NCBI GenBank assembly: GCA_002269645.1 | Contig: NIVC01000650.1 | Span: forward strand, 340,996 to 404,995 | Reading direction: 5' to 3' | From: Macrostomum lignano | Lineage: Eukaryota | DNA: 64,000 bases | Part shown: piece after piece, positions 6,823 to 64,000 of the stretch | Position numbering within the stretch: the first letter of the stretch is position 1 | Layout of the letters: every line of letters begins with the position of its first letter | The notes under the pieces: model-generated | The model's input: the letters and a program-made list of their open reading frames with translations, nothing else | The model's database searches: none | What the model was told of the DNA's origin: nothing | Translations under genes and position numbers: made by a program

Positions 6823-16939
<10,117 letters not shown>

Positions 16940-37425: not shown

Positions 37426-37482
37426 GTGTCACAACAGCTGACCCGTCACATGCCCGCAGCCCCAGCTCAAACAGCATCGCCC

Positions 37483-44860: not shown

Positions 44861-44971
44861 TCCAATTCTCAATTTTTTAATTAATTCGAATGTAAGTCAC
44901 GTTCTAGTTTCAGTTATCCCGGCATCCCAGTTACATTTATCCCAAATTGCAGAAAAGCCCCAATTCCGCGG

Positions 44972-47900
44972 TTACGTCTCGCTGTGGGGCTTTTTACTAG
45001 TCGGATGTTGGACCAGAAAGGCGGGCAGGGCCACTAGGCTCACAGTAATAAACATGATGATGGTCAGGCTGACAAAGATCCAGAAGAAGATTCTGTCCAG
45101 TGCGAATGCGGCCGAACGCCAGTCGTCCGTGAAGTCGACGGTGTTGTTGGCCGTTGTGGCTGCTTCAATGCTCGACTGCTGCTGCAACGGCGCCGGCAGT
45201 TGCGGGCCGCTGCTATTCAATTGCAGCTGCCGCTGCGAGGCCGTCTGGCTGCTGCCGTTAACTGCCGAATTCAGGGCGCACTTGAAGTAGCTGGCCGATG
45301 GTGGCACCTTGTAAGAGTTCAAGTGGAATACGATCGTGCTTCGGTTTGTTGCTATGCAATTTCGTTAAATGTAATAAAGCTACAGAGAAAGGTGATTGTA
45401 GTCAGTGCGGATCGGAACTAAATTTTTCCATTCTTTATCTTTTGCAAACGTCCGAGTGTGTCGAAAACTGAGAGGTTCCAAAGAATCCTTACTCTTCGCC
45501 AAACGGTCTTATTCGATGAGCTGCAGAATGAACTCAACCTTGAACAGACTCATTTGAAGTTATTTGCGCAAACTACTAGAGATTTGCTTCGTGTTGATTC
45601 TTTCCTTGCTACTTGGAAGAGATAAAGAATTCGACCTTGAAGAACTAGAGCTACTCTCGCATCTCCAATATGCGAGACGTCAACTGTAGAAGCGTTTTAA
45701 ATATAAGCTCCTGTTAGTCCATGTGCGAGTTTTGTAGTTTCTGTACACCAGCTATTCGGGCATTTCTGTTTGTCTTTAATGTGCTGATTAGCATGCTACA
45801 AGATCTGAAGATGAAGATTTGGAAAATAATTCGGGATCGCTCTTCGCACAGGGACTAAAAGTTAAGCAGAGTTCGCCACGGTTAGTAGGTGGCACTACAC
45901 TACTAGCATACCAAGCCTTTGGATGCTGTGTTGCAATTCACTTCCTTGGCGGCACGCCTGGCCAACCTTGCTTCTATTTCTATGAATACGTTGCTATACA
46001 CTTCCGATACGTGGTCAAGCAGTTTATACTCATCCTTTCTTTAATCAAAGTTCAATCGCACCTGGCTCATGGTTGGTGCCCAGTTCTGGCGCTGAATTGG
46101 CGAATAGTCATCGGATGCGGCCGTGCAGCTTGCTGGGAAATTATCGCCGTCGGCGGAGTTCAAGCTGGCCGCGTCGAACTGTTCGATCTGGCGCATCCGG
46201 GCGATGCCTCGCCGCAGGCGCAGACTCACCTCCAGCTGGTTTGCGGCCGCTTCTTCGCGCCGGCTCCGCCACTTACGGTGCAGGCGCGCCAATTTGAGCA
46301 CGAAGTCTCCTGGCCTGGCCTGCGCTTCGGAAAAGTAAAAATGCGTCACCGTCACCGCCATGACAACCGCCAGGGCCACCATCAGCATTGTGACGCTGAA
46401 TAAAAGACCTGGATCGGGTAAATTAAGGAATGAGATCGGGATGCAGGCGAGGATGAAGACCAGCAGACAGTGGCGTACGCAGGAATTTCAATGAAAGGGG
46501 CCAGAAACCCTAAAGGGGCGCCAATAATCCAATATTTAGTGTTTTGGTAGGCGCCCCTGTCTCTTGATGGGCGCCCCTGTCTCTTGGTGGTCGCCCCTGT
46601 CTCTTGGTGGTCGCCCCTGTCTCTTGGTGGTCGCCCCTGTCTCTTGGTGGTCGCCCCTGTCTCTTGGTGGTCGCCCCTGTCTCTTGATGGGCGCCCCTGT
46701 CTCTTGGTGGGCGCCCTGTCTCTTGGTGGGCGCCCCTGTCTCTTGGTGGGCGCCCCTGTCTCTTGGTGGTCGCCCCTGTCTCTTGGTGGTCGCCCCTGTC
46801 TCTTGGTGGGCGCCCCTGTCTCTTGGTAGGCGCCCCTGTCTCTTGGTGGGCGCCCCTGTCTCTTGGTGGGCGCCCCTGTCTCTTGGTAGGCGCCCCTGTC
46901 TCTTGGTGGGCGCCCCTGTCTCTTGGTGGGCGCCCCTGTCTCTTGGTAGGCGCCCCTGTCTCTTGGTAGGCGCCCCTGTCTCTCTTAGTGAGCGCCCCTG
47001 TCTCTTGGTGGGCGCCCGTGTCTTGGTGGTCACCCCTGTCTCTTGGTGGTCGCCCCTGTCTCTTGGTGAGCGCCCCTGTTTCTTGGTGGGCGCCCCTGTC
47101 TCTTGGTGGGCGCCCCTGTCTCTTGGTGAGCGCCCCTGTTTCTTGGTGGGCGCCCTAATATTTGGTTAAGAGGCGCGGCCCCCTGCCTTCCCTCTGCGTA
47201 TGCCGCTGTCCGCACGATCCACTAATAACGAGAGTCCTCACCAACTATGGGCACCGCATCCGGAGTTGGCGGCATAGCCTCGCTAACCATGAGCAGGAAC
47301 ACCACCAGAGCCAGCAGCACTGTGATCTCCAGGTTGACTTTCTCGCCGGACTCAATCGGCAGGAAGAAGCCCAGAATTGATACGCAGTAGATGAGCAGGC
47401 AGGGGCAGATGAGGTTGATCACGTAAAACAGGCACCTGCGAAACATGTGGATGTTGAAGTGCACGAGCGGAAACGGCTCGGCACAGCAGGGGTAATTTTT
47501 CTCCTCCAGGTACGGCGTTATGGCCGTCACCATCCACTCCTGGTTACGCTCGATGAAATAAACTTTCTGATTCTCTGGCCCGGTGTGGTTCAGCTTCAGT
47601 CGCTGCCCGTCGTAGGTCCAGGACATCATAGTCATGTTGCAGTCCTGCGTATCGAATGGAAAGTAGCGAACGTCGAGGGTGCAGTAGAGTTTCACCACGA
47701 TGGGAAAAGTCCACATCACACTGCCGGTGGAGGTTACTATGGCGTTGGTGTTGATGTAGTCGGAGTACTCGTCGTTGGCGCTGAGGGTTTGACGGCAGAA
47801 ATGGAATAGCTTCGGAAACGGTAGCAGCAACTGACAAAGCATCTGAGAGGGTGACAGAGCAACTGCGAGGGTGATAGAGCAACTGCGAGGGTGACAGAGC

Positions 47901-50072
47901 AACTGCGAGGGTGACAGAGCAACTGCGAGGGTGACAGAGCAACTGCGTGGGTGACAGAGCAGCTGCAAGGGTGACAGAGCAACTGAGAGGGTGACAGAGC
48001 AACTGCGAGGGTGACAGAGCAACTGTGTGGGTGACAGAGCAACTGCAAGGGTGACAGAGCAACTGAGAGGGTGATAGAGCAACTGAGAGGGTGATAGAGC
48101 AACTGAGAGGGTGACAGAGCAACTGCGAGGGTGACAGAGCAACTGCGAGGGTGACAGACCAACTGAGAGGGTGACAGAGCAACTGCGAGGGTGACAGCAT
48201 CTGAAAGGGTGACAAAGCAACTTAGAGGGTGACAGCATCGCAGAGGGCTACAGCATCAGAGAGAGAGTGACAGAGCATCTGAGAAGACGACAGCATCGGA
48301 GGGTGACGGCCTTAAAGAGGGTGACAACATCGGAGAGGGCGACAGCATCAAAGAGGCTGTCAGCATCGGAGGGTGACGGCCTTAAAGAGGGTGACAGCAT
48401 CGGAGAGGGCGACAGCATCAAAGAGGCTGTCAGCATCGGAGGGTGACGGCCTTAAAGAGGGTGACAGCATCGGAGAGGGCGACAGCATCAAAGAGGCTGT
48501 CAGCATCGGAGGGTGACGGCCTTAAAGAGGCTGTCAGCATCGGAGGGTGACGGCCTTAAAGAGGGTGACAGCATCGGAGAGGGCGACAGCATCAAAGAGG
48601 CTGTCAGCATCGGAGGGTGACGGCCTTAAAGAGGGTGACAGCATCGGAGAGGGCGACAGCATCAAAGAGGCTGTCAGCATCGGAGGGTGACGGCCTTAAA
48701 GAGGGTGACAGCATCGGAGAGGGCGACAGCATCAAAGAGGCTGTCAGCATCGGAGGGTGACGGCCTTAAAGAGGGTGACAGCATCGGAGAGGGCGACAGC
48801 ATCAAAGAGGCTGTCAGCATCGGAGGGTGACGGCCTTAAAGAGGGTGACAGCATCGGAGAGGACGACAGAACACTGGAGAAGGGAAGGCAGTATCGACGA
48901 GAAAGATTATGAAGAGGGGCAAATGAGAATGAGAGAAAATAAAATCAGGTATGTAAGAAGGGACCTGTCAGCTAAAAGACAGAAAGGACTGTTGGCACAG
49001 TGTGACTATAGACTTCTCAGTCGGAAAGATCCAAACCAATTGGATTACTAATCCCATTCTGATCCCATCAACAATCCATGTTGTCAGCTTAACTTAGTCT
49101 GCTCTTGCAGATTAAATCCGGTGTCAATCAAACGCTCAAACACACCTAGCCCACCAAAAAAGCAACTATTGTATAAATGGAGGCGGCAACCTGAGATCGT
49201 TAACTTCAACAAGTGCTTTGTGCTTCGCATTAAGACCCTATTTTTCTCACGCTCGAACAGATTTTTTACTCTATAACTTCTATACTTCTTTGTGTACGAA
49301 ATTATTGATCTTCTTCAATATCGTTCCTTAATTCCTTAATTGAGCTACTTGGTCTAAAGTACGCCTGTCTGCAAAGGCTGATTTTATCGATTTTCCTGGT
49401 CAACTCTTCAATTCTTGTTTTTCTACCCCAGCCAATCCCAACTCGCTGTCATTGGCTGGCCGGGGGTAGGGGGTGAGAGAGACCCTAGCGTAACTCCTTC
49501 CCTATATCAAGCCTACCCACTCTATCGATTTTAGCGCCGCATGACTCACTAGTTGGAGATGATCACGTCCGGGCGCCAAATACTTCTCGACGGGATCCAG
49601 ATTTTCTCAATAGGATAGGTGCTTAGATTCCAGCGCATGTATTCGTCCACCCAGTACTGCAATGTTAAAATCGTTTTTTAATTAGAAAGCACAATCGATA
49701 TATAAAGCTGGCTCCTGCTGAGCACATACCAATCTGAGTGAAAGCAGTGCTGACACCGTTTGATGCCTTTCGCTCTGAAAAAGAATTAATAATGAAGCTC
49801 TCAGCTTCTCATTTGAATCAACATAGACAAAAATATTATCCGAGAACCAGAGAATGACAGGTTGATACGAGTATTGAGTAGCTAATACTCCGAGCATCTC
49901 ACAGTGTCCAGGATGTGAAACAGCGACACACCGAGATCGCACGTGACCGCTGTTTTGTCGTCCCGGACTGGCCGGCTCGTGACGTCATAGCCTTTCATAA
50001 GGAACTGCTTGAGTCTGTACTCAACAGACGAATTACCGTACGGCAGGTCGCTTGTCCAGGTGTAGGCTCTCG
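44972..50072 (-). CDS. Cys-loop ligand-gated ion channel, nicotinic acetylcholine receptor alpha-like subunit (5'-incomplete)
   Basis: Exons (-) 50072-49903, 49774-49730, 49656-49550, 47780-47242, 46408-46062, 45307-44972 all join in phase (~514 aa). GYDVTSRPV, WRPD, Cys-loop CTLDVRYFPFDTQDC, SWTYDG, vicinal YPCC, TM2 GEKVNLEITVLL, TM4 DWRSAAFALDRIF. The signal-peptide exon was not found in the window. Confidence 0.93.
46550..47155. repeat. Intronic minisatellite, 20-bp unit (CTTGGTGGGCGCCCCTGTCT)
   Basis: About 30 copies in a receptor intron. Confidence 0.95.
47830..48200. repeat. Intronic minisatellite, 20-bp unit (GAGGGTGACAGAGCAACTGC)
   Basis: Tandem units. Confidence 0.93.
48280..48860. 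repeat. Intronic 70-bp tandem repeat, ~8 near-identical copies
   Basis: Unit CAGCATCGGAGGGTGACGGCCTTAAAGAGGGTGACAGCATCGGAGAGGGCGACAGCATCAAAGAGGCTGT, built from diverged sub-units related to the adjacent 20-mer. Confidence 0.93.
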
Positions 50073-50119
50073 CTGGAAGGATTAGAAATGGGAATGACCC
50101 TGTCTTATCTCATTATATA

Positions 50120-50680
50120 TATTCTTACCATCCATTCTCACCCCATCCATTCTCCACCTATCCATTCTCAACTTATCCATTCTCACCCTATCCATTTCAC
50201 CCTATATCCATTCTCACCTCATCCATTCTCATCCCATCAATTCTCACCCCATCCATTCTCACCCCATCGATTCTCAACTTATCAATTCTCACCGTATCCA
50301 TTTCACTCTATCTATTTCACTCTATTTATTCTCACTCTATCCATTCTCACGCCATCTATTCTCACCCCATCCAATCTCAACTTATCCATTCTCACCCCAT
50401 CGATTCTCAACTTATCCATTCTCACCGTATCCATTTCACTCTATCCATTTCACTCTATTTATTCTCACTCTATCCATTCTCACCCCATCTATTCTCACCC
50501 CATCCAATCTCAACTTATCCATTCTCACCCCATAAATTCTCAACCTATCCATTTTCAACCTCTGTATTCTCTCACTGTCCATTCTCACACTATCCATTCT
50601 CACACTATTCATTCCTACCCTATCCATTCTCCTTTCCATTCCCACTCTATTCCATTCTTATCCTATTCTTTCTCATCCTC
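50120..50680. repeat. Degenerate ~16-bp pyrimidine-rich repeat (TATCCATTCTCACCCC)
   Basis: Imperfect tandem units upstream of the first visible receptor exon. Confidence 0.85.
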
Positions 50681-50806
50681 AAGTATTTTAAAATTTGTTT
50701 GTGACTTGACTATTCTAATGGTTAATGCCGATATGTATCGAAAAAAACTTTGTAAGGAAAGATCGAAAGTTTATGCATTTCGAAATCTATCTATAATTTT
50801 ACTTTC

Positions 50807-53022
50807 TGATGTAACCGCCCTTGTCGCCTGTCCGCTCCGTAGAGAGACGAACGCATGACTAGAGGGGCCAATGACCGTAGGCTGCCTATGACCGGGCAAT
50901 GACCTGACGGACCTCCAGCACCAGACTGTCCCGCCCACATGATTAGTAGCTTTGGTAGCGCTTCGTGACCAGAGGGCCAAGGACCCACATGGACCCCACC
51001 TGTAGCCAAGGTGCAATAGTTGGTCACTCGGTCATAGTATGACCGAGTGGCTGCCACCACTCTATGTGACCTGGCGCACCTGGATCTTTCTACCAGACCT
51101 CTCGAGGCTAGAGCCCCGCCTGGATTGGTTACCAGGGGATTTAGGCTAACAGGGGAGACGCATGCAGCCGAGTACAGGGACTCTGCTTGGGGCATGATCG
51201 GGAACTCTGGGCTCAATCCTGGAGGATTTCTCAGCAGGGGATCCTTTGTGGCTGTGAGCGAGGCTGACTTGCGACTTTGATTACTAAGAGTAGTATGAGG
51301 CGAACATGTACTGTCTACAGTTTAGATTGCTCAGGGCGAAGGGACGCGTTAGCATGGGGTTGCAACCTTCCTACTGCCATTCTGTGCCAAGACTCGCTAA
51401 TCCCTCTACTGCACGCACACGCGGCCCCGCAGCACGCACTCACAGGCGGGCTTTGCACGGGGAGAGGCCATTAGCTTACCCAAACTTCCTTATGCTTTGC
51501 CACCCCGGGAGAAAGGCTTAGCAAGCCATGAGTGAAATGATGGTGAAAGATTGAATAATGATGAAGTTAGTTAATAGTTAATAATTAGGCCCTTAGGCAA
51601 ATAAGCAGGCAATTAGGCGGCTTCACTATTGAGTAAAATACAGCAAAAGATACGGTATCACAATTGGCTCAGCTCTCTAATCAGACAATGGAAAATAGGC
51701 AAACCCCGGATAAGCAAAGGCAATTAGAGCACAAATTAGTAGCAGGAACTTACCGGCAGCTGCACAGAGAGAGAGAGAGGCGGAGTGACCGAGGGCGGCT
51801 GTAGGCTGCAGTCAGGCAGACGGTGAAGCGGCGATGCGCTGGAGCGACGAGGCGCTGATGTAGATCAGGCGATGCTGATGATGCTGGGCGGTATCAGACC
51901 GCTGGCCGATAGGCGAGCTCACTTGGGGAGCTAAGGATAACTTGGCGGTAACAGACCGCGGGCCGGCAGGGATTCGTCTTATAGACGAATGGGTCAGAAC
52001 TCAATCTGACAGCAAGTCCAAAGAAGGACGAGGAGAGGAACAGAGATAAACTCAGTTGAGTATTCTCATGCCGAAATCGCTTCCTTTTATAGACCTCACA
52101 GCCGCCTCCTCAAGGTCGTTACCATGGCTCCCTCTCTCTGATTGGCTGCCGGCAGAATGACGTCAGAATGAGTCATGATGAGAAGCATGAGACCGGCATA
52201 GCAACATGAGAAATCGGGAAATTGCGCAATCCGGAGGTGGGGTGGGGGGATAATTGGCGCAGCGGGTGGTCGCGAAAGTGTTGCGCAAGCAAACATTGAG
52301 AACAATAGGGCTGGGGTCGAGAACAAAGGAATTGGAAATCGGGGATAATTGGGGAAAACTGAGAACAATGGAAAAGTAAACATTGGAGAAAAGGTGATAA
52401 TTAGGTGCGAAAACGAGAACAAAAGAAAGAGAAAATCGGAGAAAATGTGATAATTGGTGGGGTCGAGAGAACAAAAGAAGCAAAAACGAGAACAATAGAA
52501 GCGGAGGTGGGGTGGGTGTCACATGAGAAATTTGGGAAGGAGAACAATAGCGTGAGAAAAGGTTGCGCAAGAGAGGGGGATGAGTCATCGATGAGTCACC
52601 GAGGGGGAGAAGGGGTCACACGACTTGCGTCACCGTTTGGGAGTTTGAGAGGGGATGGGGAGACGGTGAGCACACAAAGTACTGTAAGTAGACACAGGGA
52701 AAGAGGGGACAGCGCAGGAAAAGAGTGCAGAGGGAGACAAAAAAAGGGAGGAGGTAGAGAAAGTACAGGAAGAATAGGGCGGGAACAGAAGAGATAGGGT
52801 AGAGGGGGAGGTACAGAAAGGGGTAGGGGCTCCGGAAAGGCAGGTGTGGCGGCAGGAGAGACGGGACCAAGGCAGCAGGAGGGTGCAGCAGAGCGGGAGT
52901 CTCCAGGCCCGGTCGGAGACCTGGCCGAGTCTCGACAGCTCTGTGCAGAGGGTGCACGGGATAGGAGGCACTTTCGAAAAAGTTCCCATGCCCTATCCCG
53001 CGACCAGAGCGTGGTTACATCA
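50807..53022 (-). repeat. 3' LTR (2216 bp)
   Basis: Direct repeat of 61748-63960 with fewer than about 10 differences seen by eye, mostly homopolymer indels; TATAAAAG at 52084-52091 and CCAAT at 52140-52147 on -. Confidence 0.97.
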
Positions 53023-53039
53023 CACCCCCACTGCCTTTT
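53023..53039 (-). other. Polypurine tract
   Basis: AAAAGGCAGTGGGGGTG on - immediately before the 3' LTR. Confidence 0.75.
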
Positions 53040-53626
53040 GTGACGGAACTGGTTCCGTCATCATCACTGCCCAACATGGAACCACACAGACGGGAGCGGG
53101 ATCTCAACCGAACGTGAAATCACAGAATTAACAAACCGCGAGCGGGAATGGAAAAAGGCGATAAAATAGAGGGGATAGCAATAAATTCACAAAACGAGAT
53201 ACATAGGTTGGAGTGCAATACAGAATTTCAAAAATTTCAACTGTTGCTGTGGCTAAAGTGGGAGGGGGGAAACACAGACAGCGCAATAGTAGGGAGAAAA
53301 ATAGCGAATTGTCAACAATAAATTATCATAATTGGATAGAAGCGCAGCTGGGAAAGAGAGGAAACGGGGAAGGGTGAGGGAAGTGGGGAAAAAGAAGGGG
53401 GAAGGGTTGCTAGCACACAGCCAAGGGCAGAGCCTCGGGGAGAATGACGATTACACAGGGGAAAAATACTAATGCAGCGCAGTAAATTAATAAGCTAATT
53501 TCGCCGGGAGTTCAACCGCACGGAGGCCTAGCGTCCTTGAAGGCTCGGACCCCGCTTCAGCCAGTCAGAGGGCTTCGGGGCGATCGGTTGTAGGCTGGGA
53601 GGCGCCGCGCCGTGCGCTGGCCACTG

Positions 53627-53740
53627 TATAAAAGGCGCCACTGATAACGGGAGCCGGCTGCCTGCAACCTACACGGAGTCGCAGTTTCCAACCAAGGCAC
53701 TCAGCGCGATTTTCCAAACTATACAACTACTCGGTAAGTC
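53627..53740 (+). promoter_or_regulatory. Antisense TATA promoter and non-coding first exon inside the LTR element
   Basis: TATAAAAG at 53627-53634 after a GC-rich stretch; CG|GTAAGT donor at 53733/53734. Confidence 0.5.
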
Positions 53741-54081
53741 CCATCACCAACCTGATTTCCTTTCGCCTATACGTTAAACGAAATCTACCCACTCGCCATG
53801 CCTTTCGTTTTAAACTGAGCCAATTGCAGTAATAATATATGGCCTTTCTTACGGTAAAAGTAGTGAGCAGCCAACACAGAGCCATTTTTAGGAATTTTTA
53901 GAATAATGACACAACAATGACTCGTATATTGGTTATTAAAGTTTAAAAATGAATATTATGGAAGAACCGAATATTAATAGGATAATTTCACACACACACA
54001 CACGACAAACACACAACGCAAGGGGGCGGAAAGGCGGGTCGGACCGGCCGGCGGACGTCGCTCAGCAGGCAGTCAGCATCC

Positions 54082-55431
54082 TTACTCGAAATGGGCCTCT
54101 TGATTTAGCTGGTACGGGCCATATGCCGCCACCTGAGCCATGGCACTTGCCCATGCTTCCACATAACGTTGGGCTGCCGCGGCCGTGAGCACCACTCGGT
54201 GCCATCGGCTAGGCAAGATGTCGTTGCGCAGCACGCCCCTCAACTGCGGCAGAGTCGGGATGCCCAGGGCTTGGCATTGGACGACGAAGGCCGCATTCCG
54301 TACTTGTTGCAGCCGTGTCAGAGTTGGTGCAGACAGGGGCGGCTGCGCGATTGCAAAATGCTGCAAAGTGCCACGGGGCACCTCGGCCAGGCCCGCGTAG
54401 CCGGGCTCAACGTCGCCCAGGGCCGCCAACACCCACCCACAGCGGCGATTGAACCGTTGCGAGAGAGTGGCGGCCCAGGCCACTGTGGCAAACGGCGCAT
54501 AGAGGAGGGGCGCAGAGGCCGGCGCGGAGGCCGCAAGAATGCCGTCGTGGATGACGAGAGCCTCTTCCCATTCGGCGCCCTCGCTCAGGAAGCCCCAGAG
54601 CAGCCCTGGCAGGTCCGCAGGAAGCATGCCCCAGCGGCTGGCCAAGCTGGCCAGGCCAATCAATAGCCGGGCTCTCTGGGTTGGTGTCAGTTGTCTAGTC
54701 ATCTGAGAGGAGGCTGCGCAGCTGATGATCACCTTCTTGTAGACCGGCCGATCGCAGGTGCTGAAGATTGCTGTGATGGGGGCACAGGACGGCGGCCGGG
54801 CTGTCAGGTGTGATGGTTCCTCATCCACAACCTTGCGGAGGAACTTGGCGGCCTGCCGGACTAGGTCGCCGAGGGCGTATTTGTAGGCGCTCTGGGCCGC
54901 TGCCTCGATGTACATTAACAGCGTATTGTCAACCAATCCCAGCAGGGCCGCTTTTGACAGGATGAGCAGACAGGGCCGGTCCAGGTTGTCGCGAAGTTGG
55001 CGCTCTAGAGTCGCATGCCTGTCCTCGGCCTGGAGTGGGCCATGATAGGACTCAGGCCCGACCCAGTGCACCAGATCCATAGCTGTCGCCGAAGGTTCGC
55101 CAGCCACCTGACCCCAATCGACTTCTTCTCTTTGCAGGGCGATGTCCACACTTCGGCGGCTGTTGGGCAGAACATCACGCAGGCGGCGGGCCGCCTCGCC
55201 GAATTCGGCCGCCAGGTCCGAAATGTCCGCGGTGTCGCCCCCAGCATTGGCCGGGTCGATTGTCTCGTCACCTTCTTCGACCCTGGCGGAGGCCGCCGCT
55301 GGCGGCTCGGGGCCGTCCTCCGCCTCTTGGATGGCGTCACGGGGCCGCTTTCGGCTAACTGGGCTGGCAGGACGCTCAGACGGTAAGCTGGAGCATAGCT
55401 GAATTCGATTGATGGTAGGCTTCGTGTCCAT
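54082..55431 (-). CDS. ORF3: unrecognised 449-aa protein carried by the LTR element
   Basis: Long intact ORF with ATG. Acidic/Pro-rich N-terminus with NLS-like RKRPR, then ~330 aa of apparently helical sequence. No signal peptide and no RT/IN/env motifs recognised. Confidence 0.75.
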   Translation of the reverse strand: MDTKPTINRIQLCSSLPSERPASPVSRKRPRDAIQEAEDGPEPPAAASARVEEGDETIDPANAGGDTADISDLAAEFGEAARRLRDVLPNSRRSVDIALQREEVDWGQVAGEPSATAMDLVHWVGPESYHGPLQAEDRHATLERQLRDNLDRPCLLILSKAALLGLVDNTLLMYIEAAAQSAYKYALGDLVRQAAKFLRKVVDEEPSHLTARPPSCAPITAIFSTCDRPVYKKVIISCAASSQMTRQLTPTQRARLLIGLASLASRWGMLPADLPGLLWGFLSEGAEWEEALVIHDGILAASAPASAPLLYAPFATVAWAATLSQRFNRRCGWVLAALGDVEPGYAGLAEVPRGTLQHFAIAQPPLSAPTLTRLQQVRNAAFVVQCQALGIPTLPQLRGVLRNDILPSRWHRVVLTAAAAQRYVEAWASAMAQVAAYGPYQLNQEAHFE

Positions 55432-56842
55432 GTCAAGCTGGATAGTTCATAGAATGCTTCAGCGATTGAAGGACAGAATGATTTCTCTGATTGATGATTT
55501 CCAGCTCTGGCAGGCGTGGGTCTTCTTATAGTGCCGGGGCTGGCTTCCCATTGGTTGAGCACATTGGGAGGCACACCTGCTGCGGCCGGGGTCGCCGTTG
55601 GCTTGGGACCGCTCGCTCTAGTCTCCGTGCGCTCTGATTGGCTGGTTCCGCCGCTTCCTGTTTCCTCACCTGTGAGCAGGGGGCAGACCCGAGACCACCT
55701 CCGGTCGCGCCCGCGGCAGATCCGTACTCCAGCCGACAGAGATCGCACTCCCACCTCACATGCACACATTCAGATCAGGCACACAAATTAATTTGGTTAA
55801 TATGAATAGAAGAGGGATTTGGGAGATTAGACTCCGGAGGATAAATGATGATGCGGCCCAACTCCCTTCGATTTCTTCCTTCAACGCCACGCGCACGCAG
55901 TTCTCATCCATGCCTCCGAGACCCTCATAAACTTAACAGCCGAAAGAATTCGAAAGAGGAATTAATCATTAATTTGACTGCCACCAGTTTGATGTACTAT
56001 TATAAAAGAGAAAGGGGAACCTACCACCATCTTGGCGCATTACCAAAGAAAAGAAAAGGAGGATCAGCCACCATTTTGAGAGAGGTTGCTAGGGAAAACT
56101 GCCACCAATTGTACATTAACAGGGAAGAGAAAGAGGGAACCCGTCACCAATTAGAGTGGATTGCCCGGGGAAACTGCCACTATTTGCCCTTCTACCAGAG
56201 GAGAGGAAGACGAAAAACTGCCATCCTTAGAGGTGTATCATTAAAAGAAGGCGGGGAAGAAGGCTACCACTACTTGATCACCTAGAGCTCAAGGGAAGGA
56301 GAGGGAATGAAGAAAGGAAGAAACCCCCAGGAAGGCCACTACCACACGCCATAAAGTTAAAATCCCCATCTATCTACATCCTAATACCCGGCTAGTTCCC
56401 TACTTCTATTTCATCCCTTAAATTCTCATTTTCAGGATTCCGGCCGCTAGTAGCCGAGCCCATCCTTGAAGAGGAGTCCGACTACGAAGCGCCCGAAGAC
56501 AGCCATTCAGAGCCGGACGCCCCCTCTGATTCTGGGCCGGCTGCGCCATCTGGTGACATAGGCGCCGCGGCTCCCGGGCCATGCGACCGCCGGGCCGCCA
56601 GCGAACCAGCGTCCGGGGCCGGTTGGCATCCGGTACCACCGCCGTTGTCAGCCCGAGCGCACGCTCCGCCGCCGGTCGCCGCGGTGACGCCCGTGGCTGC
56701 CGCTCCACAGCCCTTGCCAACCCCTGTGGTGGAGACCGACGGCTCCTGGCATTTGGTCGTGCTGTCGACGGCCCTAATAGCCGGTCTCACAATGCACTGG
56801 CTACTGCTCTTGGAGCTATTTCTGCGGCTTCCCAACTGCTGA
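55142..56842 (+). CDS. Candidate spliced antisense ORF, 215 aa, Arg-rich N-terminus and C-terminal hydrophobic anchor
   Basis: Acceptor TTCTTCTCTTTGCAG|55138, ATG 55142, donor ACG|GTAAGC at 55382 (phase 1), acceptor TTCTCATTTTCAG|56436 in matching phase, TGA at 56840-56842. Confidence 0.45.
55523..55641 (-). promoter_or_regulatory. Internal promoter for ORF3 (two CCAAT boxes and TATA)
   Basis: On -: AGCCAATC (CCAAT 55637-55641), ACCAATGG (55550-55554), TATAAGAA (55523-55530), ~90 nt upstream of the ORF3 ATG. Confidence 0.6.
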
Positions 56843-57428
56843 TGCTGGTGGTTCTTAATGCTTACTTACTAATTCTGAACTATCTGTCCCCATAACTTGA
56901 CTTTAATTACTTACCTGACTTTACATTGACTAAACCACTGGCCTACTCTAAACTAATTGCTGCCCCATTTGCCTGATAAACTTAATTACATTGAATGCCC
57001 CCCCTATTGCCTCATCGAAACCAATTAAAAGTTTCCCAAAATCGGACTTTCACAAAGTGTGAACAAACACACGAAATCAGACCTAAAGGTGCTAATTTCC
57101 TACGGTCCCAGACTTCCATTGTTCCCAGAAAATCTTAAACAGCGGGGCAGGACCTCCTGTGGAGCAGACCCATAGAAATTTTACTAGTTTCCAAGTTAAT
57201 ATTTACTGATAGGGAATTAACGCATACTGTACGGGCCTAATTTTCGAGCTAAAATCTTAGATATTTAAACAACACCAACGAGCACGAGGTCACAACATAA
57301 ATTCGAGTAATAGAGGGCATACGTAAATACGCGAAAAGCGGTCTCCAACGGGGCAACACGAGCAAAATTTCGACACGCGAATCGGGGGGGGGAATTAAGC
57401 AATCACTGGCTAGCTACCGATCTGTTAC

Positions 57429-57944
57429 TCAGCGGGGGTCGAATGGGAGACTCACACCTAGCAAGTAAACCTTTTCTGTTCGATAGTCTATGATAGCATG
57501 CGTACTGGCTAGAAAAGCACTACCCAGGAGGGAAACTGCTGCTGAATTGCCAACGACCAGAAAGAGGATTCTCACCTCTTCTAGCCCAATAACTGCTGTG
57601 AGGGTGGCCTGGCCTAGCATCTCTAATTCATTGCCCGTGTAGGACACGGCCTTCACACATGGGGGCTCCAGGGCCTCCACACTCTGTCCGGTAATTTTAG
57701 TAAAGTCTTTGACTGTTAGCAAAGACAGCGCACTGCCCCCATCTACCAGGAGGCGGGTGGGAACATTCTCAATTGGCAACTCTACAACAATATCTCTCCC
57801 GCGTTGTCCTCTAGCTGGTCTTGGCTGATAGAAATCGGGTACCTTCTCAAATCTAAACTTCTTGCTGGGCGGACGTGGCAGGTTAAGCTGGGCCCTAGAG
57901 AGGGAACGGGGCTGAGTTCGGGCCGGGCCATTCAGCCCTCCCAC
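57429..57944 (-). CDS. Retropepsin-type aspartic protease in the -1 frame of gag
   Basis: LLVDGGSALSLL active-site motif and C-terminal SLLGSAFL; overlaps the gag end; stops at 57429 with no RT following. Confidence 0.88.
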   Translation of the reverse strand: MGGLNGPARTQPRSLSRAQLNLPRPPSKKFRFEKVPDFYQPRPARGQRGRDIVVELPIENVPTRLLVDGGSALSLLTVKDFTKITGQSVEALEPPCVKAVSYTGNELEMLGQATLTAVIGLEEVRILFLVVGNSAAVSLLGSAFLASTHAIIDYRTEKVYLLGVSLPFDPR

Positions 57945-57953
57945 GGGTTTCCC
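57908..57953 (-). other. -1 programmed ribosomal frameshift signal
   Basis: G GGA AAC slippery heptamer in the gag frame (57947-57953), 8-nt spacer, GGGCUGA/UCAGCCC stem. Confidence 0.75.
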
Positions 57954-59377
57954 GAACCCGGGGGCTCTTCAGGCGTGGAAGGAGGAGGCATCAGAGCTTG
58001 CGCGCGCAGCTGGGCGAGCCTCTCCTGCCTCTCCCTGGTAGCCTCGTCTAACATATCTCTGCCCCACTCCTCTAAATCTTGCCTATGGCGATCAGGTGGC
58101 GCACGAAGCTGCAATTGCTGCTGCTGCACACCCGGCGCCGGCGGCGTGGGCGCCTCCTGAATTGCAAGCGGCGGGGGCTGGGGTTGGCGCCAGTTCCTAC
58201 TGCTATTAGAGCCGCCCTGCCCCTGCCTCCAGTTCCTGTTGGGAGTGGCGGGGCGAGGGGGCCTCATCTGCTGGGGCAGCTGGGCAACAGACTCTGCTGT
58301 CGCCTTCATAGTTTCATTGAGCTGCACCAGCTGGTTGCGCAGATCCTTTTGCGTTTGCTCTAGCGCGCCCAACCTCTCTTGCATCTCTGATAGGCCGTCA
58401 CCGTCCTCCTCCGTCTCGTCAGCTTCCTGGTTCACCATCCTGACCCACTTGCGAGGGGGCCTGGGTGGCTGCTGAGGTTGCAGACGGACTTCGGTGCGGG
58501 ACTCAGACCTGGGCGGGCCACTACTGTCCCATTTCCCGGCTAAGTCTGCGGCTTCTAACAGGGCTTGCTGCTGTTCTAACACCTGCTCAATTGTCTGCCA
58601 GCGACGGCTCAACAGATCTTGTCTGACCTGGCGGGGGAGCTTAGCGTGTTCCAAGTAGGTGTACACGATTTCTTGTTCTCTCTGCTCACCCTGAATCTGA
58701 GGAAACATGGCCGTTATCTGAGATCTTATCATAGCAGCAAAAGCACTATGTGATTGGCCGGGTTTCTGGCTCAGATTCTTCAGCTTATTTCTCTTAGCCA
58801 GATCAGTGTTGGCCTCGCCCAACTGCTCTCCTAATCTAGATACGAACTGCTCAAAGGGCAATTGCCCGTCCAATCCTAAGGCTAAGTTCTGAAATTCACC
58901 TGGGAGGTGCGAGATGAGCACCTGCTTCCTAGCCTGATCTCCTACAGTTCTCTCCGCGTCCAGCTTGTAGATCATTCTCTCTACCCATTGCACAAAACAG
59001 TGTTCGCCGGGAGAGAACTTTTCTACGTAGATTTTCGGCCTCTGGGCGTCTTGGCCCATGTTTAGCTGGTTAAACGCATTGGCTATAGCGGCAACTAAGT
59101 CTCCTAGCTGCGGGACTGCCTGAGGAGGATTCTGGGCTGCGTCCGGGGGAGCAGCGGCGGCTGCTGCGCCACCCTGATTGGGAGCGGGAGCTGCTACTCC
59201 TTCATCTGGTTCCTCAACTACTACTGCTTCTGGAGGCTGAGGGACCTGGTTACCAGCGGCTGCGGCCATTGCGGCTGCGGGGGCGGCAACTGCTGGGGTG
59301 TCAGCGGCCGAGGGTGGTTGACCAGGGGCGTCTGCGCACACAGCTTCTACGACCCTATCTCCACGCGCCCGTGACAT
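57932..59377 (-). CDS. Gag-like protein, 481 aa
   Basis: Ala/Pro-rich N-terminus; capsid-like core (EKFSPGEHCFVQWVER; LKNLSQKPGQSHSAFAAMIR); coiled-coil and RP/Q-rich C-terminus; no CCHC knuckle; located between the PBS and the protease. Confidence 0.85.
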   Translation of the reverse strand: MSRARGDRVVEAVCADAPGQPPSAADTPAVAAPAAAMAAAAGNQVPQPPEAVVVEEPDEGVAAPAPNQGGAAAAAAPPDAAQNPPQAVPQLGDLVAAIANAFNQLNMGQDAQRPKIYVEKFSPGEHCFVQWVERMIYKLDAERTVGDQARKQVLISHLPGEFQNLALGLDGQLPFEQFVSRLGEQLGEANTDLAKRNKLKNLSQKPGQSHSAFAAMIRSQITAMFPQIQGEQREQEIVYTYLEHAKLPRQVRQDLLSRRWQTIEQVLEQQQALLEAADLAGKWDSSGPPRSESRTEVRLQPQQPPRPPRKWVRMVNQEADETEEDGDGLSEMQERLGALEQTQKDLRNQLVQLNETMKATAESVAQLPQQMRPPRPATPNRNWRQGQGGSNSSRNWRQPQPPPLAIQEAPTPPAPGVQQQQLQLRAPPDRHRQDLEEWGRDMLDEATRERQERLAQLRAQALMPPPSTPEEPPGSGNPWEG

Positions 59378-61726
59378 GTGAATGCCGGATAGCTGGGGGA
59401 GTACCCACTACCGGGAAGGAAAAGAAAAGAAAACCGGGGCAACTACAGGTAAAGACCGAAAAGTTGATCCGAAACACACAAACACACTCACACACACAAA
59501 CACAGACAAAACCACACACTTGCGGCGTCGAAGAAAACAAATTGAAAAACGGGTGGCTCCACATAATTCCATTTAGGCAGTCCTAACGGCTTCACTCGGC
59601 AAAGCACACTGACTCAAACTGCGGCTACCACTACCAGTTGTCTATGGCACATCCTGACAGGGAAAAATTGGCTATTCAGAGAGACTTGACCTTCATTTTG
59701 CGGCCATGCTAGGGAACCCAAATGCCGACCGTAAACGGACTTACGGCACCTGTACAAATTCTCCCCTAGGGTTGCGCGCCGGACCCCATTTCCTTAAGAA
59801 AGCTACTACGAAGAAGCGTTGGCGCCTGGACCCAAAAACCCAAGTGGCGGGAGCAATCCCCATGGAGGTCCTCCCACTTTACTGCCCTTGCACAGCCGGA
59901 AAACCGTCGGAGTCCAGTGGGGCTTCCACCTCAGGACTACCAATCTTGTACACGCAGCTTCACAAAAGGCGGGAATCCAGCTCCCCTACGTCTAGCAGAA
60001 TCCACAAAAACCAAGACCTCCCCCTTCTGTTCAGAGCGAAGGCGCGCAGCGGGAGTCCAGACTAAACTGTCCCCGAAGTTTTCAGGTTAGGCGGATTACA
60101 AGCCTGAAACTCTCGCCCGCTTTCCTAGGATAAACAGACCTAAGTGAGTATCTTCCTGAAATGCTTGCCCCTCCGATACTCCACCTTTGCTGCAGCTCGA
60201 AATAGCATACTTGGGACCTTTATCTGATGGCGGAGAAAGTCCTACAGTTGTCAGCCTCTCCACTTTACTGTACTTGAACGCCCGGTTCTACCAGGAGACA
60301 GCGGTACCTCCATCTAGGTTATTCCAAGTTGCCAGAGACGTCAACCCGTCTTATTGACCTTGCGGGGCACTGGGGTGGCACTCTATGTACCGGGGCTTTA
60401 CATTAGGGGACTGCATGCAACCCTGCGTCTAAGCGCTTAGTGGGCTGCAGTGGCCAGAGGGGAAAAGAGTTGCGCAATAGCGCCTTCCTGGGCCAGGCTG
60501 ACAAGTCGGGCAGGAGCGCCGTTCTACCGGGTCGGGCTGATTGGCACACCCACCTCCCCTATCAGACTGACAGCAGGGGGGAGGAATTACTAAAGGAGGA
60601 GAATGCAGCAGGAAACATTACGAGATCACTGGGGGCCACCAGACTTCCAGTACACCATTCCAATACTCACTGAACTCCACTATCAATAGGATACTATGGG
60701 ATCTACTATTTCCAGCCACTGCACCAGCCCAAATGCAACCAAAGCAGTTACTACCGGGTCTGCAATACAGTGGGGAGAGTCAGCAGACACGTTGGGATCG
60801 AATCCCAGCCATGAAGGCACCAGGGGTTACCGCAGAATTCAGGTCCGGGCTGATCGCAGGTATTCCATAGGAGGTGACACTTTTTTTAGCCCGAGATTTT
60901 TGAGTCACACTGATACCCTACAGAGATACAATCACACCGCTATTCCCATTCCTGCGAGACTTTGGTATCCCCCAATGTTTCCAAGGCCATGACTACTGCT
61001 TCCCTTACTATGCATATATAGCGAGTTCCCCATAGCCCTTGATAGCTGTTCATTCTAATGGACAAACAAAACACGCTCCGGTCTCTACGCATTTCTAGGA
61101 TTAACTGAGCGATCAGGGAGAGCGACTGTTACACTCCCCCGAGTAAAAGAAAGAGGTAGGACAAAGGAAAGAAATGCTTCGCTTCCAGCTTCCCTGTGCT
61201 TGCGTGATGAGGCTTCCGTACCTGGCTGGCTGTCCACCTCAACACTCACACAGTTCTGCTGTAGGCTAGGCGAGAGAAAGAAAGGGAGGGGAAATAAAGC
61301 ATATTACCATGAAATAGAAAGTGAGTCCGGAAAATTCACTTTCGCAGTTCTTCACACACTCCGTTACCAGGTAGCTATTCTGATTGTAATCAAATCCGCT
61401 CGTCTACCACTTCACACTTTCTAGCGCTGAAACTGATCGGCTAAATTAATTTTAAATTGAATCAGGGGCTTTTGGCGAATGAATGAATTTGGAAATTTCG
61501 AATGAATTGAACGAATTCGCAGCCCGAAAAATTTGAAAAGTTACATTAATATTTTTGGATTTTGTTGCCTCACGCCATGGGAGAAGAGAATGACGATTGG
61601 CGATTTTTACGATTGGTAGATTTAGACATGGCACTCTTTGCGCTTCGGCCACCATTCTGAGGGATGCCACAGGTGCGCTTGTCACATCTAAACCACCAGT
61701 CCGAAACTCAGCGCTGTTTGCACCAG

Positions 61727-61744
61727 ATCCCACCGCTGCCACCA
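61727..61744 (-). other. Primer binding site complementary to the tRNA-Leu 3' end
   Basis: The + strand reads ATCCCACCGCTGCCACCA, the 3'-terminal 18 nt of eukaryotic tRNA-Leu(AAG/UAG) including CCA, 3 nt from the 5' LTR. Confidence 0.88.
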
Positions 61745-61747
61745 TTT

Positions 61748-63960
61748 TGATGTAACCGCCCTTGTCGCCTGTCCGCTCCGTAGAGAGACGAACGCATGAC
61801 TAGAGGGGGCAATGACCGTAGGCTGCCTATGACCGGGCAATGACCTGACGGACCTCCAGCACCAGACTGTCCCGCCCACATGATTAGTAGCTTTGGTAGC
61901 GCTTCGTGACCAGAGGGCCAAGGACCCACATGGACCCCACCTGTAGCCAAGGTGCAATAGTTGGTCACTCGGTCATAGTATGACCGAGTGGCTGCCACCA
62001 CTCTATGTGACCTGGCGCACCTGGATCTTTCTACCAGACCTCTCGAGGCTAGAGCCCCGCCTGGATTGGTTACCAGGGGATTTAGGCTAACAGGGGAGAC
62101 GCATGCAGCCGAGTACAGGGACTCTGCTTGGGGCATGATCGGGAACTCTGGGCTCAATCCTGGAGGATTTCTCAGCAGGGGATCCTTTGTGGCTGTGAGC
62201 GAGGCTGACTTGCGACTTTGATTACTAAGAGTAGTATGAGGCGAACATGTACTGTCTACAGTTTAGATTGCTCAGGGCGAAGGGACGCGTTAGCATGGGG
62301 TTGCAACCTTCCTACTGCCATTCTGTGCCAAGACTCGCTAATCCCTCTACTGCACGCACACGCGGCCCCGCAGCACGCACTCACAGGCGGGCTTTGCACG
62401 GGGAGAGGCCATTAGCTTACCCAAACTTCCTTATGCTTTGCCACCCCGGGAGAAAGGCTTAGCAAGCCATGAGTGAAATGATGGTGAAAGATTGAATAAT
62501 GATGAAGTTAGTTAATAGTTAATAATTAGGCCCTTAGGCAAATAAGCAGGCAATTAGGCGGCTTCACTATTGAGTAAAATACAGCAAAAGATACGGTATC
62601 ACAATTGGCTCAGCTCTCTAATCAGACAATGGAAAATAGGCAAACCCCGGATAAGCAAAGGCAATTAGAGCACAAATTAGTAGCAGGAACTTACCGGCAG
62701 CTGCACAGAGAGAGAGAGAGGCGGAGTGACCGAGGGCGGCTGTAGGCTGCAGTCAGGCAGACGGTGAAGCGGCGATGCGCTGGAGCGACGAGGCGCTGAT
62801 GTAGATCAGGCGATGCTGATGATGCTGGGCGGTATCAGACCGCTGGCCGATAGGCGAGCTCACTTGGGGAGCTAAGGATAACTTGGCGGTAACAGACCGC
62901 GGCCGGCAGGGATTCGTCTTATAGACGAATGGGTCAGAACTCAATCTGACAGCAAGTCCAAAGAAGGACGAGGAGAGGAACAGAGATAAACTCAGTTGAG
63001 TATTCTCATGCCGAAATCGCTTCCTTTTATAGACCTCACAGCCGCCTCCTCAAGGTCGTTACCATGGCTCCCTCTCTCTGATTGGCTGCCGGCAGAATGA
63101 CGTCAGAATGAGTCATGATGAGAAGCATGAGACCGGCATAGCAACATGAGAAATCGGGAAATTGCGCAATCCGGAGGTGGGGTGGGGGATAATTGGCGCA
63201 GCGGGTGGTCGCGAAAGTGTTGCGCAAGCAAACATTGAGAACAATAGGGCTGGGGTCGAGAACAAAGGAATTGGAAATCGGGGATAATTGGGGAAAACTG
63301 AGAACAATGGAAAAGTAAACATTGGAGAAAAGGTGATAATTAGGTGCGAAAACGAGAACAAAAGAAAGAGAAAATCGGAGAAAATGTGATAATTGGTGGG
63401 GGTCGAGAGAACAAAAGAAGCAAAAACGAGAACAATAGAAGCGGAGGTGGGGTGGGTGTCACATGAGAAATTTGGGAAGGAGAACAATAGCGTGAGAAAA
63501 GGTTGCGCAAGAGAGGGGGATGAGTCATCGATGAGTCACCGAGGGGGAGAAGGGGTCACACGACTTGCGTCACCGTTTGGGAGTTTGAGAGGGGATGGGG
63601 AGACGGTGAGCACACAAAGTACTGTAAGTAGACACAGGGAAAGAGGGGACAGCGCAGGAAAAGAGTGCAGAGGGAGACAAAAAAAGGAGGAGGTAGAGAA
63701 AGTACAGGAAGAATAGGGCGGGAACAGAAGAGATAGGGTAGAGGGGGAGGTACAGAAAGGGGTAGGGGCTCCGGAAAGGCAGGTGTGGCGGCAGGAGAGA
63801 CGGGACCAAGGCAGCAGGAGGTGCAGCAGAGCGGGAGTCTCCAGGCCCGGTCGGAGACCTGGCCGAGTCTCGACAGCTCTGTGCAGAGGGTGCACGGGAT
63901 AGGAGGCACTTTCGAAAAAGTTCCCATGCCCTATCCCGCGACCAGAGCGTGGTTACATCA
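61748..63960 (-). repeat. 5' LTR (2213 bp)
   Basis: Copy of 50807-53022; TATAAAAG at 63024-63031 (-); splice donor CCG|GTAAGT at 62695/62694 (-). Confidence 0.97.
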
Positions 63961-64000
63961 TCGTTGCACTCTGTGCAATTCGTCAAAATCCAAAAGCAGT

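What the first reader, a model, noticed from the sequence alone, without database searches (positions are those of the whole stretch)
54082..55641. Orphan 449-aa ORF3 with a dedicated CCAAT-CCAAT-TATA internal promoter
The ORF occupies the env-like position but has no signal peptide or obvious fusion/TM architecture. It has an NLS-like RKRPR, an acidic disordered N-terminus and a long predicted-helical region. Canonically spaced promoter motifs directly upstream imply expression independent of the LTR. Candidate roles (inference): transactivator, anti-silencing factor or captured host/viral gene.
Basis: partly seen in the sequence, partly recalled or inferred. Interest (0 to 1): 0.8.

Follow-up and report, generated by a model that had tools for sequence, protein, structure and literature searches.

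The report
Accessory gene in polymerase-less retrotransposon
A young jumping-gene copy in an invertebrate genome lacks the enzymes it needs to copy itself but carries an intact extra gene of an undescribed protein family behind what looks like its own promoter, possibly a regulator that helps the element stay switched on.

Summary
The 449-codon ORF (54082-55431, minus strand), the RKRPR motif, the acidic N-terminus, the lack of a signal peptide and the upstream CCAAT/TATA cassette are all there. There are three CCAAT boxes, not two, and such a cassette arose in 0 of 20,000 shuffles. The ORF is a real protein gene: two unnamed proteins share its C-terminal ~190 residues (about 40% identity, E 3e-21 and 6e-5), so it is a near-orphan. 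No family or fold was assigned; the shared domain models as alpha/beta at low confidence. ORF3 is therefore not an env behind pol but an accessory gene of a non-autonomous Ty3/gypsy-like element. Best reading: a separately transcribed nuclear accessory protein that regulates the element, as proposed for maize Grande gene23. Promoter activity, localisation and function are inferred, not shown. Extra ORFs in LTR elements are well known; this architecture and protein family were not found in my literature searches. New variant of a known kind; interest 0.5.

The parts
61748..63960 (-). 5' LTR (2213 nt) with promoter-like motifs: TGACGTCA 63105, CCAAT 63085, TATAAAA 63031, and a splice-donor-like site at 62694
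   Evidence: 1 mismatch and 5 gap columns in 2217 against the other LTR
61727..61744 (-). Primer binding site directly inside the 5' LTR; complement of a tRNA-Leu 3' end (assignment recalled, not from a call)
   Evidence: Mag-lineage elements of Culex use tRNA-Leu or tRNA-Ser (PMC3286476 passages)
57932..59377 (-). gag-like ORF, 481 aa, with a strong splice acceptor at 59407; gag identity is inferred from position only
   Evidence: ORF; no significant Pfam, PDB or NCBIfam match; no CCHC knuckle; acceptor rank 3 of 633
57429..57968 (-). Retropepsin-type protease frame (179 codons, DGG at the catalytic motif) overlapping the gag end in the -1 frame at a G GGA AAC heptamer; ends in a stop, no pol follows
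   Evidence: phmmer to retroviral-like aspartic protease 1 in PDB, E 2.2e-7; Pfam PF13975 E 0.021, below cut-off
55978..56272 (-). Degenerate array of PBS-like TGGTGGCAG motifs, each followed by a pyrimidine tract, about 450-750 nt upstream of the ORF3 TATA
   Evidence: 5 copies within 1 mismatch in 400 nt; 0 of 1000 shuffles reach this, host flank maximum 1; 9 copies within 2 mismatches, where host minisatellites reach 17
55525..55643 (-). Internal promoter-like cassette: CCAAT 55641 (AGCCAATCAGAG, identical to the LTR box), CCAAT 55567, CCAAT 55554, TATAAG 55530; start site expected near 55500-55495 (inferred)
55433..55450 (-). Five-codon uORF whose stop lies 1 nt before the ORF3 ATG
54082..55431 (-). 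ORF3, 449 aa: RKRPR (55339-55353), acidic segment (55192-55338), helical middle, conserved C-terminal domain
54136..54681 (-). Conserved domain (residues about 251-432) shared with P0002 and P0004; models as three helices followed by a five-strand alpha/beta unit
53925..53940 (.). Back-to-back polyadenylation-like hexamers in an AT-rich stretch: AATATA (-, 53930) after ORF3 and ATTAAA (+, 53935)
   Evidence: use as poly(A) sites is inference
53559..53739 (+). Antisense promoter-like cassette facing ORF3: AGCCAGTCAGAG 53559, TATAAAAG 53627, donor-like GTAAGT 53734
53023..53040 (-). Polypurine tract next to the 3' LTR
50807..53022 (-). 3' LTR (2216 nt); termini TGATGTAACC...GGTTACATCA; no 4-6 nt target-site duplication under either of two end definitions

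Best explanation
ORF3 is a genuine accessory gene of a very young, non-autonomous Ty3/gypsy-like LTR element (LTR-PBS-gag-pro-ORF3-PPT-LTR, 13.2 kb) that must borrow RT, RNase H and integrase from another element. SHOWN: intact ORF, protein-level conservation of the C-terminal domain, absence of pol, the motifs and their excess over chance. INFERRED: (1) ORF3 is transcribed as its own short mRNA from an NF-Y/TBP-type internal promoter built like the LTR promoter, starting near 55495-55500 and ending near 53900 (about 0.7); (2) the protein enters the nucleus through RKRPR (about 0.65); (3) it is a non-enzymatic regulator: the conserved alpha/beta domain binds nucleic acid or a host chromatin or transcription factor and the acidic segment acts as the effector, so that the element's (and perhaps its helper's) transcription is raised or shielded from silencing, independently of whether the LTR is already on (about 0.35-0.4). 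The uORF and the convergent antisense promoter would hold its dose down.
For: ORF not by chance and with gene-like codon bias. Homologues P0002 (E 2.8e-21) and P0004 (E 6e-5) among 1.84 billion representatives; 71 of 176 identities to P0002. LTRs differ by 1 mismatch and 5 gap columns, and gag, protease and ORF3 frames are all open. No YxDD, RT, RNase H, integrase zinc-finger or core pattern in six frames of 53024-61748, and the longest stop-free stretch between protease and ORF3 is 127 codons on the sense strand; 0 of 7 other internal frames match Pfam. Promoter cassette 0 of 20,000 shuffles; AGCCAATCAGAG within 1 mismatch occurs 6 times in the window against 0.51 expected, 5 of the 6 inside the element, exact copies at the two LTR promoters and the ORF3 promoter. 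Weak acceptors before ORF3. NLS-like and acidic segments, no secretory features. [quoted passage not shown]
Against: No transcript, TSS or localisation data. No family, solved-structure or fold match supports nucleic-acid binding. The conserved domain is not basic (17 K/R against 13 D/E in 219 residues). The NLS and acidic segment lie outside the part shared with the two homologues, which are 225 and 100 aa on contigs of 1910 and 987 nt with no context, so their conservation and the homologues' link to a retroelement are untested. Only one copy could be examined. Splice donors exist in the LTR (62694) and at 56914 and 55669, so a spliced route is open. An efficient poly(A) site at 53930 would cut the full-length RNA short, and no AATAAA or ATTAAA lies on the sense strand of the 3' LTR. 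No target-site duplication, so this copy may be recombined or misassembled. The review seen (2019) knew no TE-encoded anti-silencing factor against piRNA pathways.
Confidence: 0.4

Rival explanations
1. ORF3 is a passenger cassette (promoter, ORF, poly(A) site) captured whole from an unknown DNA virus, another transposon or the host, which replaced pol; it is expressed but does nothing for this element.
For: Self-contained anatomy with its own promoter and 3' hexamer; GC 0.63 against 0.48-0.49 in the flanking internal segments; it sits where pol is missing. Capture of extra ORFs is common in invertebrate LTR elements (PMC5408684; PMC6431247).
Against: No donor found: 0 hits in phages, 0 confirmed of 25 candidates in GTDB genomes, no viral fold match. 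The promoter box is identical over 12 nt to the LTR's, which fits shared regulation, though most of that is the NF-Y consensus. gag is also GC-rich (0.59).
Confidence: 0.25
2. ORF3 is expressed as env genes usually are, from a spliced LTR transcript (donor 62694 or 56914) or by trans-splicing, using an acceptor at 55669, 55456 or 55437; the CCAAT/TATA motifs are a relic.
For: Good donors (8-9 of 9 consensus positions) at 62694, 56914 and 55669; the AG before 55437 would remove the uORF start and is in frame with the ATG; third ORFs are typically expressed from spliced messages (PMC5408684 passage); 38.8% of M. lignano genes are trans-spliced (PMC5730564 passage), if that is the host.
Against: These acceptors rank 37, 54 and 64 of 633 by a crude pyrimidine score of my own, while the gag acceptor ranks 3; the promoter cassette is complete, ordered and far above chance.
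Confidence: 0.2
3. The conserved alpha/beta domain is a diverged enzyme or dead enzyme (SF3/P-loop helicase, GDSL esterase, DEDD exonuclease, methyltransferase-like) acting on the element's RNA or particle.
For: Five strands alternating with helices; conserved H-x-G, YAP and GW..AxGD positions; residues 64-193 of the model align weakly (Z 2.2-3.5) with several methyltransferase folds; enzymatic ORF3s exist in rotifer LTR elements.
Against: No Walker A; profile-profile comparison with nine D5-type SF3 helicases gave probability 0.1%; profile search of PDB sequences 0 hits at E 10; Pfam 0 families for 3 of 3 members; no chain at Z 8 or more among 48,161. The model is low-confidence, so this is weak evidence either way.
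Confidence: 0.12
4. ORF3 is an unusual envelope or fusion protein.
For: Third ORF in sense orientation before the 3' LTR; one moderately hydrophobic window at 154-172.
Against: No signal peptide, sequon, furin site, CxxC or C-terminal anchor; only 7 Cys; no Pfam, PDB or BFVD match to a fusogen.
Confidence: 0.03

Closest known systems
Maize Grande gene23 and other Retand/Tat-lineage additional ORFs (PMC7264820, PMC11963269)
   Same: Extra ORF in a long 3' internal region of a gypsy-type element, transcribed from its own promoter, nuclear product, proposed regulatory role; some family members are non-autonomous; tandem repeat arrays nearby.
   Different: Those ORFs are antisense, in plants, mostly with a TRP28 (PF04195) domain; ORF3 is sense, in an animal, and matches no Pfam family.
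Bdelloid rotifer LTR-retrotransposon ORF3s: env, GDSL esterase, DEDDy exonuclease (PMC5408684)
   Same: Invertebrate LTR elements with a non-env third ORF in sense orientation.
   Different: Those elements keep a full pol and the ORF3s belong to recognisable families; here pol is absent and no such family was matched.
TR-GAG non-autonomous LTR retrotransposons of plants (PMC8704663)
   Same: Keep LTRs and an intact gag but lack RT, RNase H and integrase, and can be mobilised in trans.
   Different: Described there with a single gag ORF; this element is 13 kb with 2.2-kb LTRs, a frameshifted protease and a third gene with its own promoter-like cassette.
VANC21/VANC6 anti-silencing proteins of Arabidopsis VANDAL transposons (PMC6719617)
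   Same: Possible way of working: an accessory protein acting on its own family through a short motif repeated within the element.
   Different: DNA transposons, plant DNA methylation; no sequence link was detected and no anti-silencing activity is shown here.
Mag clade of Ty3/gypsy (most numerous clade in Macrostomum lignano, 78 of 137 families, PMC12801592)
   Same: tRNA-Leu-type PBS as in several Culex Mag families; protease related to the retroviral-like aspartic protease 1 family.
   Different: Clade is defined by RT phylogeny, which cannot be run on an RT-less element; LTRs here are 2.2 kb against 119-304 nt in the Culex Mag rows seen; no TSD.

Membership tests
LTR retrotransposon (structure) | Long direct terminal repeats with TG...CA ends | tested here: met
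LTR retrotransposon (structure) | PBS next to 5' LTR and PPT next to 3' LTR | tested here: met
   tRNA-Leu identity recalled
LTR retrotransposon (structure) | 4-6 nt target-site duplication | tested here: not met
   both end definitions; only 40 nt of right flank in the window
LTR retrotransposon (structure) | Retropepsin protease | tested here: met
   E 2.2e-7; catalytic motif reads DGG
LTR retrotransposon (structure) | Recognisable gag capsid domain | tested here: inconclusive
   no significant match; position and overlap with the protease frame only; not folded
Autonomous Ty3/gypsy (Metaviridae) | pol with RT, RNase H, integrase | tested here: not met
Mag clade | RT phylogeny | not testable with these tools
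   element has no RT
env / viral fusogen | Signal peptide, glycosylated ectodomain, furin site, C-terminal membrane anchor | tested here: not met
Retand/Grande antisense accessory ORFs | Antisense orientation to gag-pol | tested here: not met
   ORF3 and gag both on the minus strand
Retand/Grande antisense accessory ORFs | TRP28 (PF04195) domain | tested here: not met
   0 Pfam families
Retand/Grande antisense accessory ORFs | Own active promoter and nuclear localisation | not testable with these tools
   motifs present; activity needs experiments
SF3 helicase | Walker A motif | tested here: not met
SF3 helicase | Profile or fold similarity | tested here: inconclusive
   0.1% probability against D5-type set; parvovirus-type tested only through Pfam and PDB sequence scans; model pLDDT 55
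GDSL esterase / DEDDy exonuclease ORF3s | Family profile match and catalytic motifs | tested here: inconclusive
   0 Pfam and PDB sequence matches; fold search on a low-confidence model cannot exclude them
VANC-type anti-silencing factor | Family-specific loss of silencing caused by the protein | not testable with these tools
   needs experiment; repeated motif array present

The most novel reading that the evidence does not exclude
An animal LTR element that has dropped its replication enzymes and kept instead a dedicated regulatory circuit: an LTR-independent nuclear protein of a new family that recognises the element's own repeated motifs (the PBS-like array or the shared CCAAT-box promoters) and keeps the element, and perhaps its helper, free of host silencing, with an antisense promoter and a uORF as brakes. 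This would be an animal, retrotransposon-borne counterpart of the plant VANC anti-silencing system and a helper-satellite partnership in which the defective element pays with a regulator.
Probability: 0.12. Interest if true: 0.85.

Novelty: new variant of a known kind. Interest (0 to 1): 0.5.

Why it matters
Accessory ORFs of LTR retrotransposons are common and mostly unexplained. This one is compact, intact, very young and carries a promoter that can be tested directly; if the host is Macrostomum, transgenic LTR-reporter assays already exist (PMC12801592). The element would be missed by RT-seeded annotation such as the DARTS pipeline used for M. lignano, so a class of pol-less, cargo-carrying LTR elements may be uncatalogued. 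The conserved domain defines a small protein family with no known sequence or fold relative in the libraries searched. If ORF3 counters silencing it would fill a gap that a 2019 review named explicitly; if it is a passenger, it is a modest addition to a known list.

Tried and rejected
Family and structure searches with ORF3 or its alignment, all without a significant match: Pfam, PHROGs, NCBIfam, PDB sequences, ESM Atlas whole and residues 225-445, word-indexed homologue search at near and shorter lengths (10, 27; longer proteins were not searched), phages, plasmids with P0002 (59, one hit at E 0.3), GTDB genomes. P0003, the third hit, was dropped: seven repeats of one 37-residue match to a repeat protein add up to its E-value, each about 34 bits. 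Single-sequence AlphaFold model pLDDT 37, not searched. Three-sequence model of residues 226-449 (pLDDT 55, pTM 0.53): Foldseek best E 0.15 in PDB and 0.11 in BFVD (49, 50); VIA-align best Z 7.6 over 63 residues of a designed helical binder, 0 of 48,161 at Z 8 or more; 0 of 997 at Z 5 or more. These blanks do not show a new fold. The N-terminal half (1-225) has no usable model. SF3-helicase resemblance (recalled) tested against nine phage D5-type domains: 0.1%. Four WG/GW dipeptides suggested Argonaute hooks, but only 1 of the 3 inside the aligned region is kept in the homologues. No LxCxE, PxDLS, PxVxL or PIP motif. No heat-shock element in the element. No tRNA gene in the window and no Rfam match in 50000-64000. 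The hairpin after the slippery site is no stronger than shuffles (z -0.68). No second copy of ORF3, gag or protease in the window. None of five proteins looked up by exact sequence is in the protein collection. The LTR terminus and PBS motifs were not found in the readable part of supplement 5 of PMC12801592 (six families, long rows cut).
Full report
Setting. The window is animal genomic DNA rich in minisatellite arrays. Five of eight host frames tested match Pfam: Usp, cyclin, a ligand-gated channel, a rhodopsin/Srw-type GPCR and a claudin. This mix resembles the flatworm Macrostomum (15% simple and tandem repeats, 21% LTR elements in M. lignano; PMC5730564 passages), but the host is my inference: none of five proteins looked up by exact sequence was in the collection.

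The element. Two 2.2-kb direct repeats, 50807-53022 and 61748-63960, differ by 1 mismatch and 5 gap columns in 2217 and end in TGATGTAACC...GGTTACATCA. On the minus strand an 18-nt PBS follows the first repeat (61744-61727; tRNA-Leu type by recall) and a purine tract precedes the second. There is no 4-6 nt target-site duplication under either end definition. After a 2.4-kb leader comes a 481-aa ORF that I call gag by position only (no significant match), then a 179-codon protease frame that overlaps it at a G GGA AAC heptamer and matches retroviral-like aspartic protease 1 at E 2.2e-7. The protease frame ends in a stop at 57429. No RT, RNase H or integrase core pattern occurs in any frame of the internal region, the longest sense stop-free stretch between protease and ORF3 is 127 codons, and 0 of 7 other internal frames match Pfam. 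A 15-codon stretch at about 57260 with a GPY triplet could be a trace of an integrase tail or chance. The element is thus non-autonomous, and ORF3 does not follow a pol gene.

The ORF. It is as described: 449 aa at 54082-55431, not reached by 2000 shuffles and with gene-like codon GC. RKRPR (27-31) and the acidic stretch (32-80) are real; secretory and fusogen features are absent, apart from one moderately hydrophobic window at 154-172. A full HMMER scan of 1.84 billion representatives gave 3 hits: P0002 (225 aa, E 2.8e-21) and P0004 (100 aa, E 6e-5) align to residues about 238-432, with 71 of 176 identities for P0002; P0003 is a repeat artefact and was dropped. A profile search returned only the same two proteins, on contigs of 1910 and 987 nt. 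So the C-terminal half is a conserved domain of a very small family, and the N-terminal half has no detected relative. AlphaFold on the three-sequence alignment gives three helices and then a five-strand alpha/beta unit at pLDDT 55; four fold searches gave nothing above background. A recalled likeness to SF3 helicases failed (no Walker A; 0.1% profile probability).

The promoter. CCAAT boxes lie 111, 37 and 24 nt before a TATAAG that is 99 nt before the ATG. In 20,000 shuffles of the upstream 300 nt, 5 had a TATA with two boxes and 0 with three (post hoc). The distal box, AGCCAATCAGAG, is identical to the box of the LTR promoter; within one mismatch the 12-mer occurs 6 times in the window (0.51 expected, 0 of 100 shuffles), 5 times in the element, two of these being the LTR pair. 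One such copy heads a plus-strand TATAAAAG at 53627 that faces ORF3 from its 3' side, with back-to-back poly(A)-like hexamers at 53930 and 53935 between them. CCAAT boxes also appear in the M. lignano LTR sequences visible in supplement 5 of PMC12801592 (read by eye). Against exclusive use of this promoter: good donors exist upstream, and three weak acceptors lie before the ATG (ranks 37, 54, 64 of 633 by my crude score; the gag acceptor ranks 3). A 5-codon uORF stops 1 nt before the ATG. Upstream of the promoter is an array of PBS-like TGGTGGCAG motifs, 5 within one mismatch in 400 nt (0 of 1000 shuffles; host maximum 1), though at two mismatches host minisatellites exceed it.

How it most likely works. 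The LTR drives a genomic RNA and, through the strong acceptor at 59407, a gag(-pro) message; RT and integrase come from a helper. ORF3 is a separate unit with its own promoter and 3' end, so it can be made when the LTR is quiet. With an NLS-like motif, an acidic arm and a conserved folded domain, the most economical guess is a nuclear regulator that supports the element's expression (confidence 0.4 for the whole chain; about 0.95 that it is a real gene, 0.7 for the promoter). Rivals: passenger cargo that replaced pol (0.25), spliced expression (0.2), diverged enzyme (0.12), env (0.03); the first two concern origin and expression and are not exclusive of each other. Nothing here shows nucleic-acid binding, and the conserved domain is not basic.

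Comparison with the known. It works like, at best, maize Grande gene23 (own promoter, nuclear product; seen only as reviewed in PMC7264820, parts 1-2 of 3, and PMC11963269 passages), but fails membership of that group on orientation and domain. Non-env third ORFs occur in rotifer LTR elements (PMC5408684, part 1 of 5 and passages) and planarian Burro elements (PMC6431247 passages), with pol retained. Pol-less gag-bearing elements are known as plant TR-GAGs (PMC8704663 passages). VANC is the anti-silencing precedent (PMC6719617 passages). PMC3286476 (passages) supports a Mag-like PBS; PMC8220671 (passages) added nothing. The M. lignano catalogue (PMC12801592, parts 1-2 of 6, supplement 1 whole, supplement 5 part 1 of 8 and a term search) starts from RT domains and would not list this element; supplements 2-4 were not read. 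Searches showed no description of this element or protein in the held library, which lacks most subscription journals.

Verdict. New variant of a known kind: a pol-less LTR element with an intact accessory gene of an undescribed family behind a likely internal promoter. Interest 0.5, down from 0.8 because extra ORFs with their own promoters are precedented, only one copy could be seen and no mechanism could be tied to the protein. The bold case, an animal retrotransposon-encoded, sequence-specific anti-silencing factor, has probability about 0.12 and would merit 0.85.

Noticed in passing
window 53559-53940 (+): Antisense promoter-like cassette (CCAAT-like box, TATAAAAG, donor at 53734, possible acceptor near 53829, ATTAAA at 53935) with no ATG ORF; may make a short non-coding RNA or an antisense transcript across ORF3.
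   Followed up: partly
window 56396-56895 (+): Strong plus-strand acceptor at 56436 (rank 2 of 569) opens a GC-rich stretch where two frames (148 and 104 codons) each end in a hydrophobic segment of about 2.0, followed by ATTAAA at 57024; could be an antisense exon for a small membrane protein. No Pfam match.
   Followed up: partly
window 55978-56344 (-): Array of about nine degenerate PBS-like motifs with pyrimidine tracts; could be protein-binding sites, tRNA-fragment decoys or packaging signals.
   Followed up: partly
window 50807 and 63960: No target-site duplication although the LTRs are nearly identical; recombination between two insertions or an assembly join are possible.
   Followed up: partly
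window 61748-63960 (-): LTR is unusually long, with TATA about 930 nt from its start, seven TTGTTCTC repeats and three TGACTCAT sites upstream, a second TATAAG at 62923, splice donors inside, and no AATAAA or ATTAAA on the sense strand.
   Followed up: partly
window 57932-57968 (-): gag-protease overlap has a G GGA AAC slippery heptamer, so a -1 frameshift would give a Gag-PR protein with no pol; protease motif is DGG.
   Followed up: partly
window 59407 and 55437 (-): The AG sites before gag and before ORF3 are both in frame with their ATGs; flatworm spliced leaders end in AUG (recalled), so trans-splicing would give short in-frame extensions. One chance in nine by itself.
   Followed up: no
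window 1-50806: Host genes with introns filled by 8-70 nt minisatellites: Usp (about 34600-34945), cyclin (37450-38403), ligand-gated channel (about 44970-47740), intronless GPCR (18743-19873), claudin-like (16505-16939).
   Followed up: partly
window 20716-21315: Perfect 157-nt inverted repeat pair 286 nt apart, possibly a MITE.
   Followed up: no
window 27920-29256 (+): Six TATA-like sites with two to four upstream CCAAT in an AT-rich host region; probably repeat-derived.
   Followed up: no
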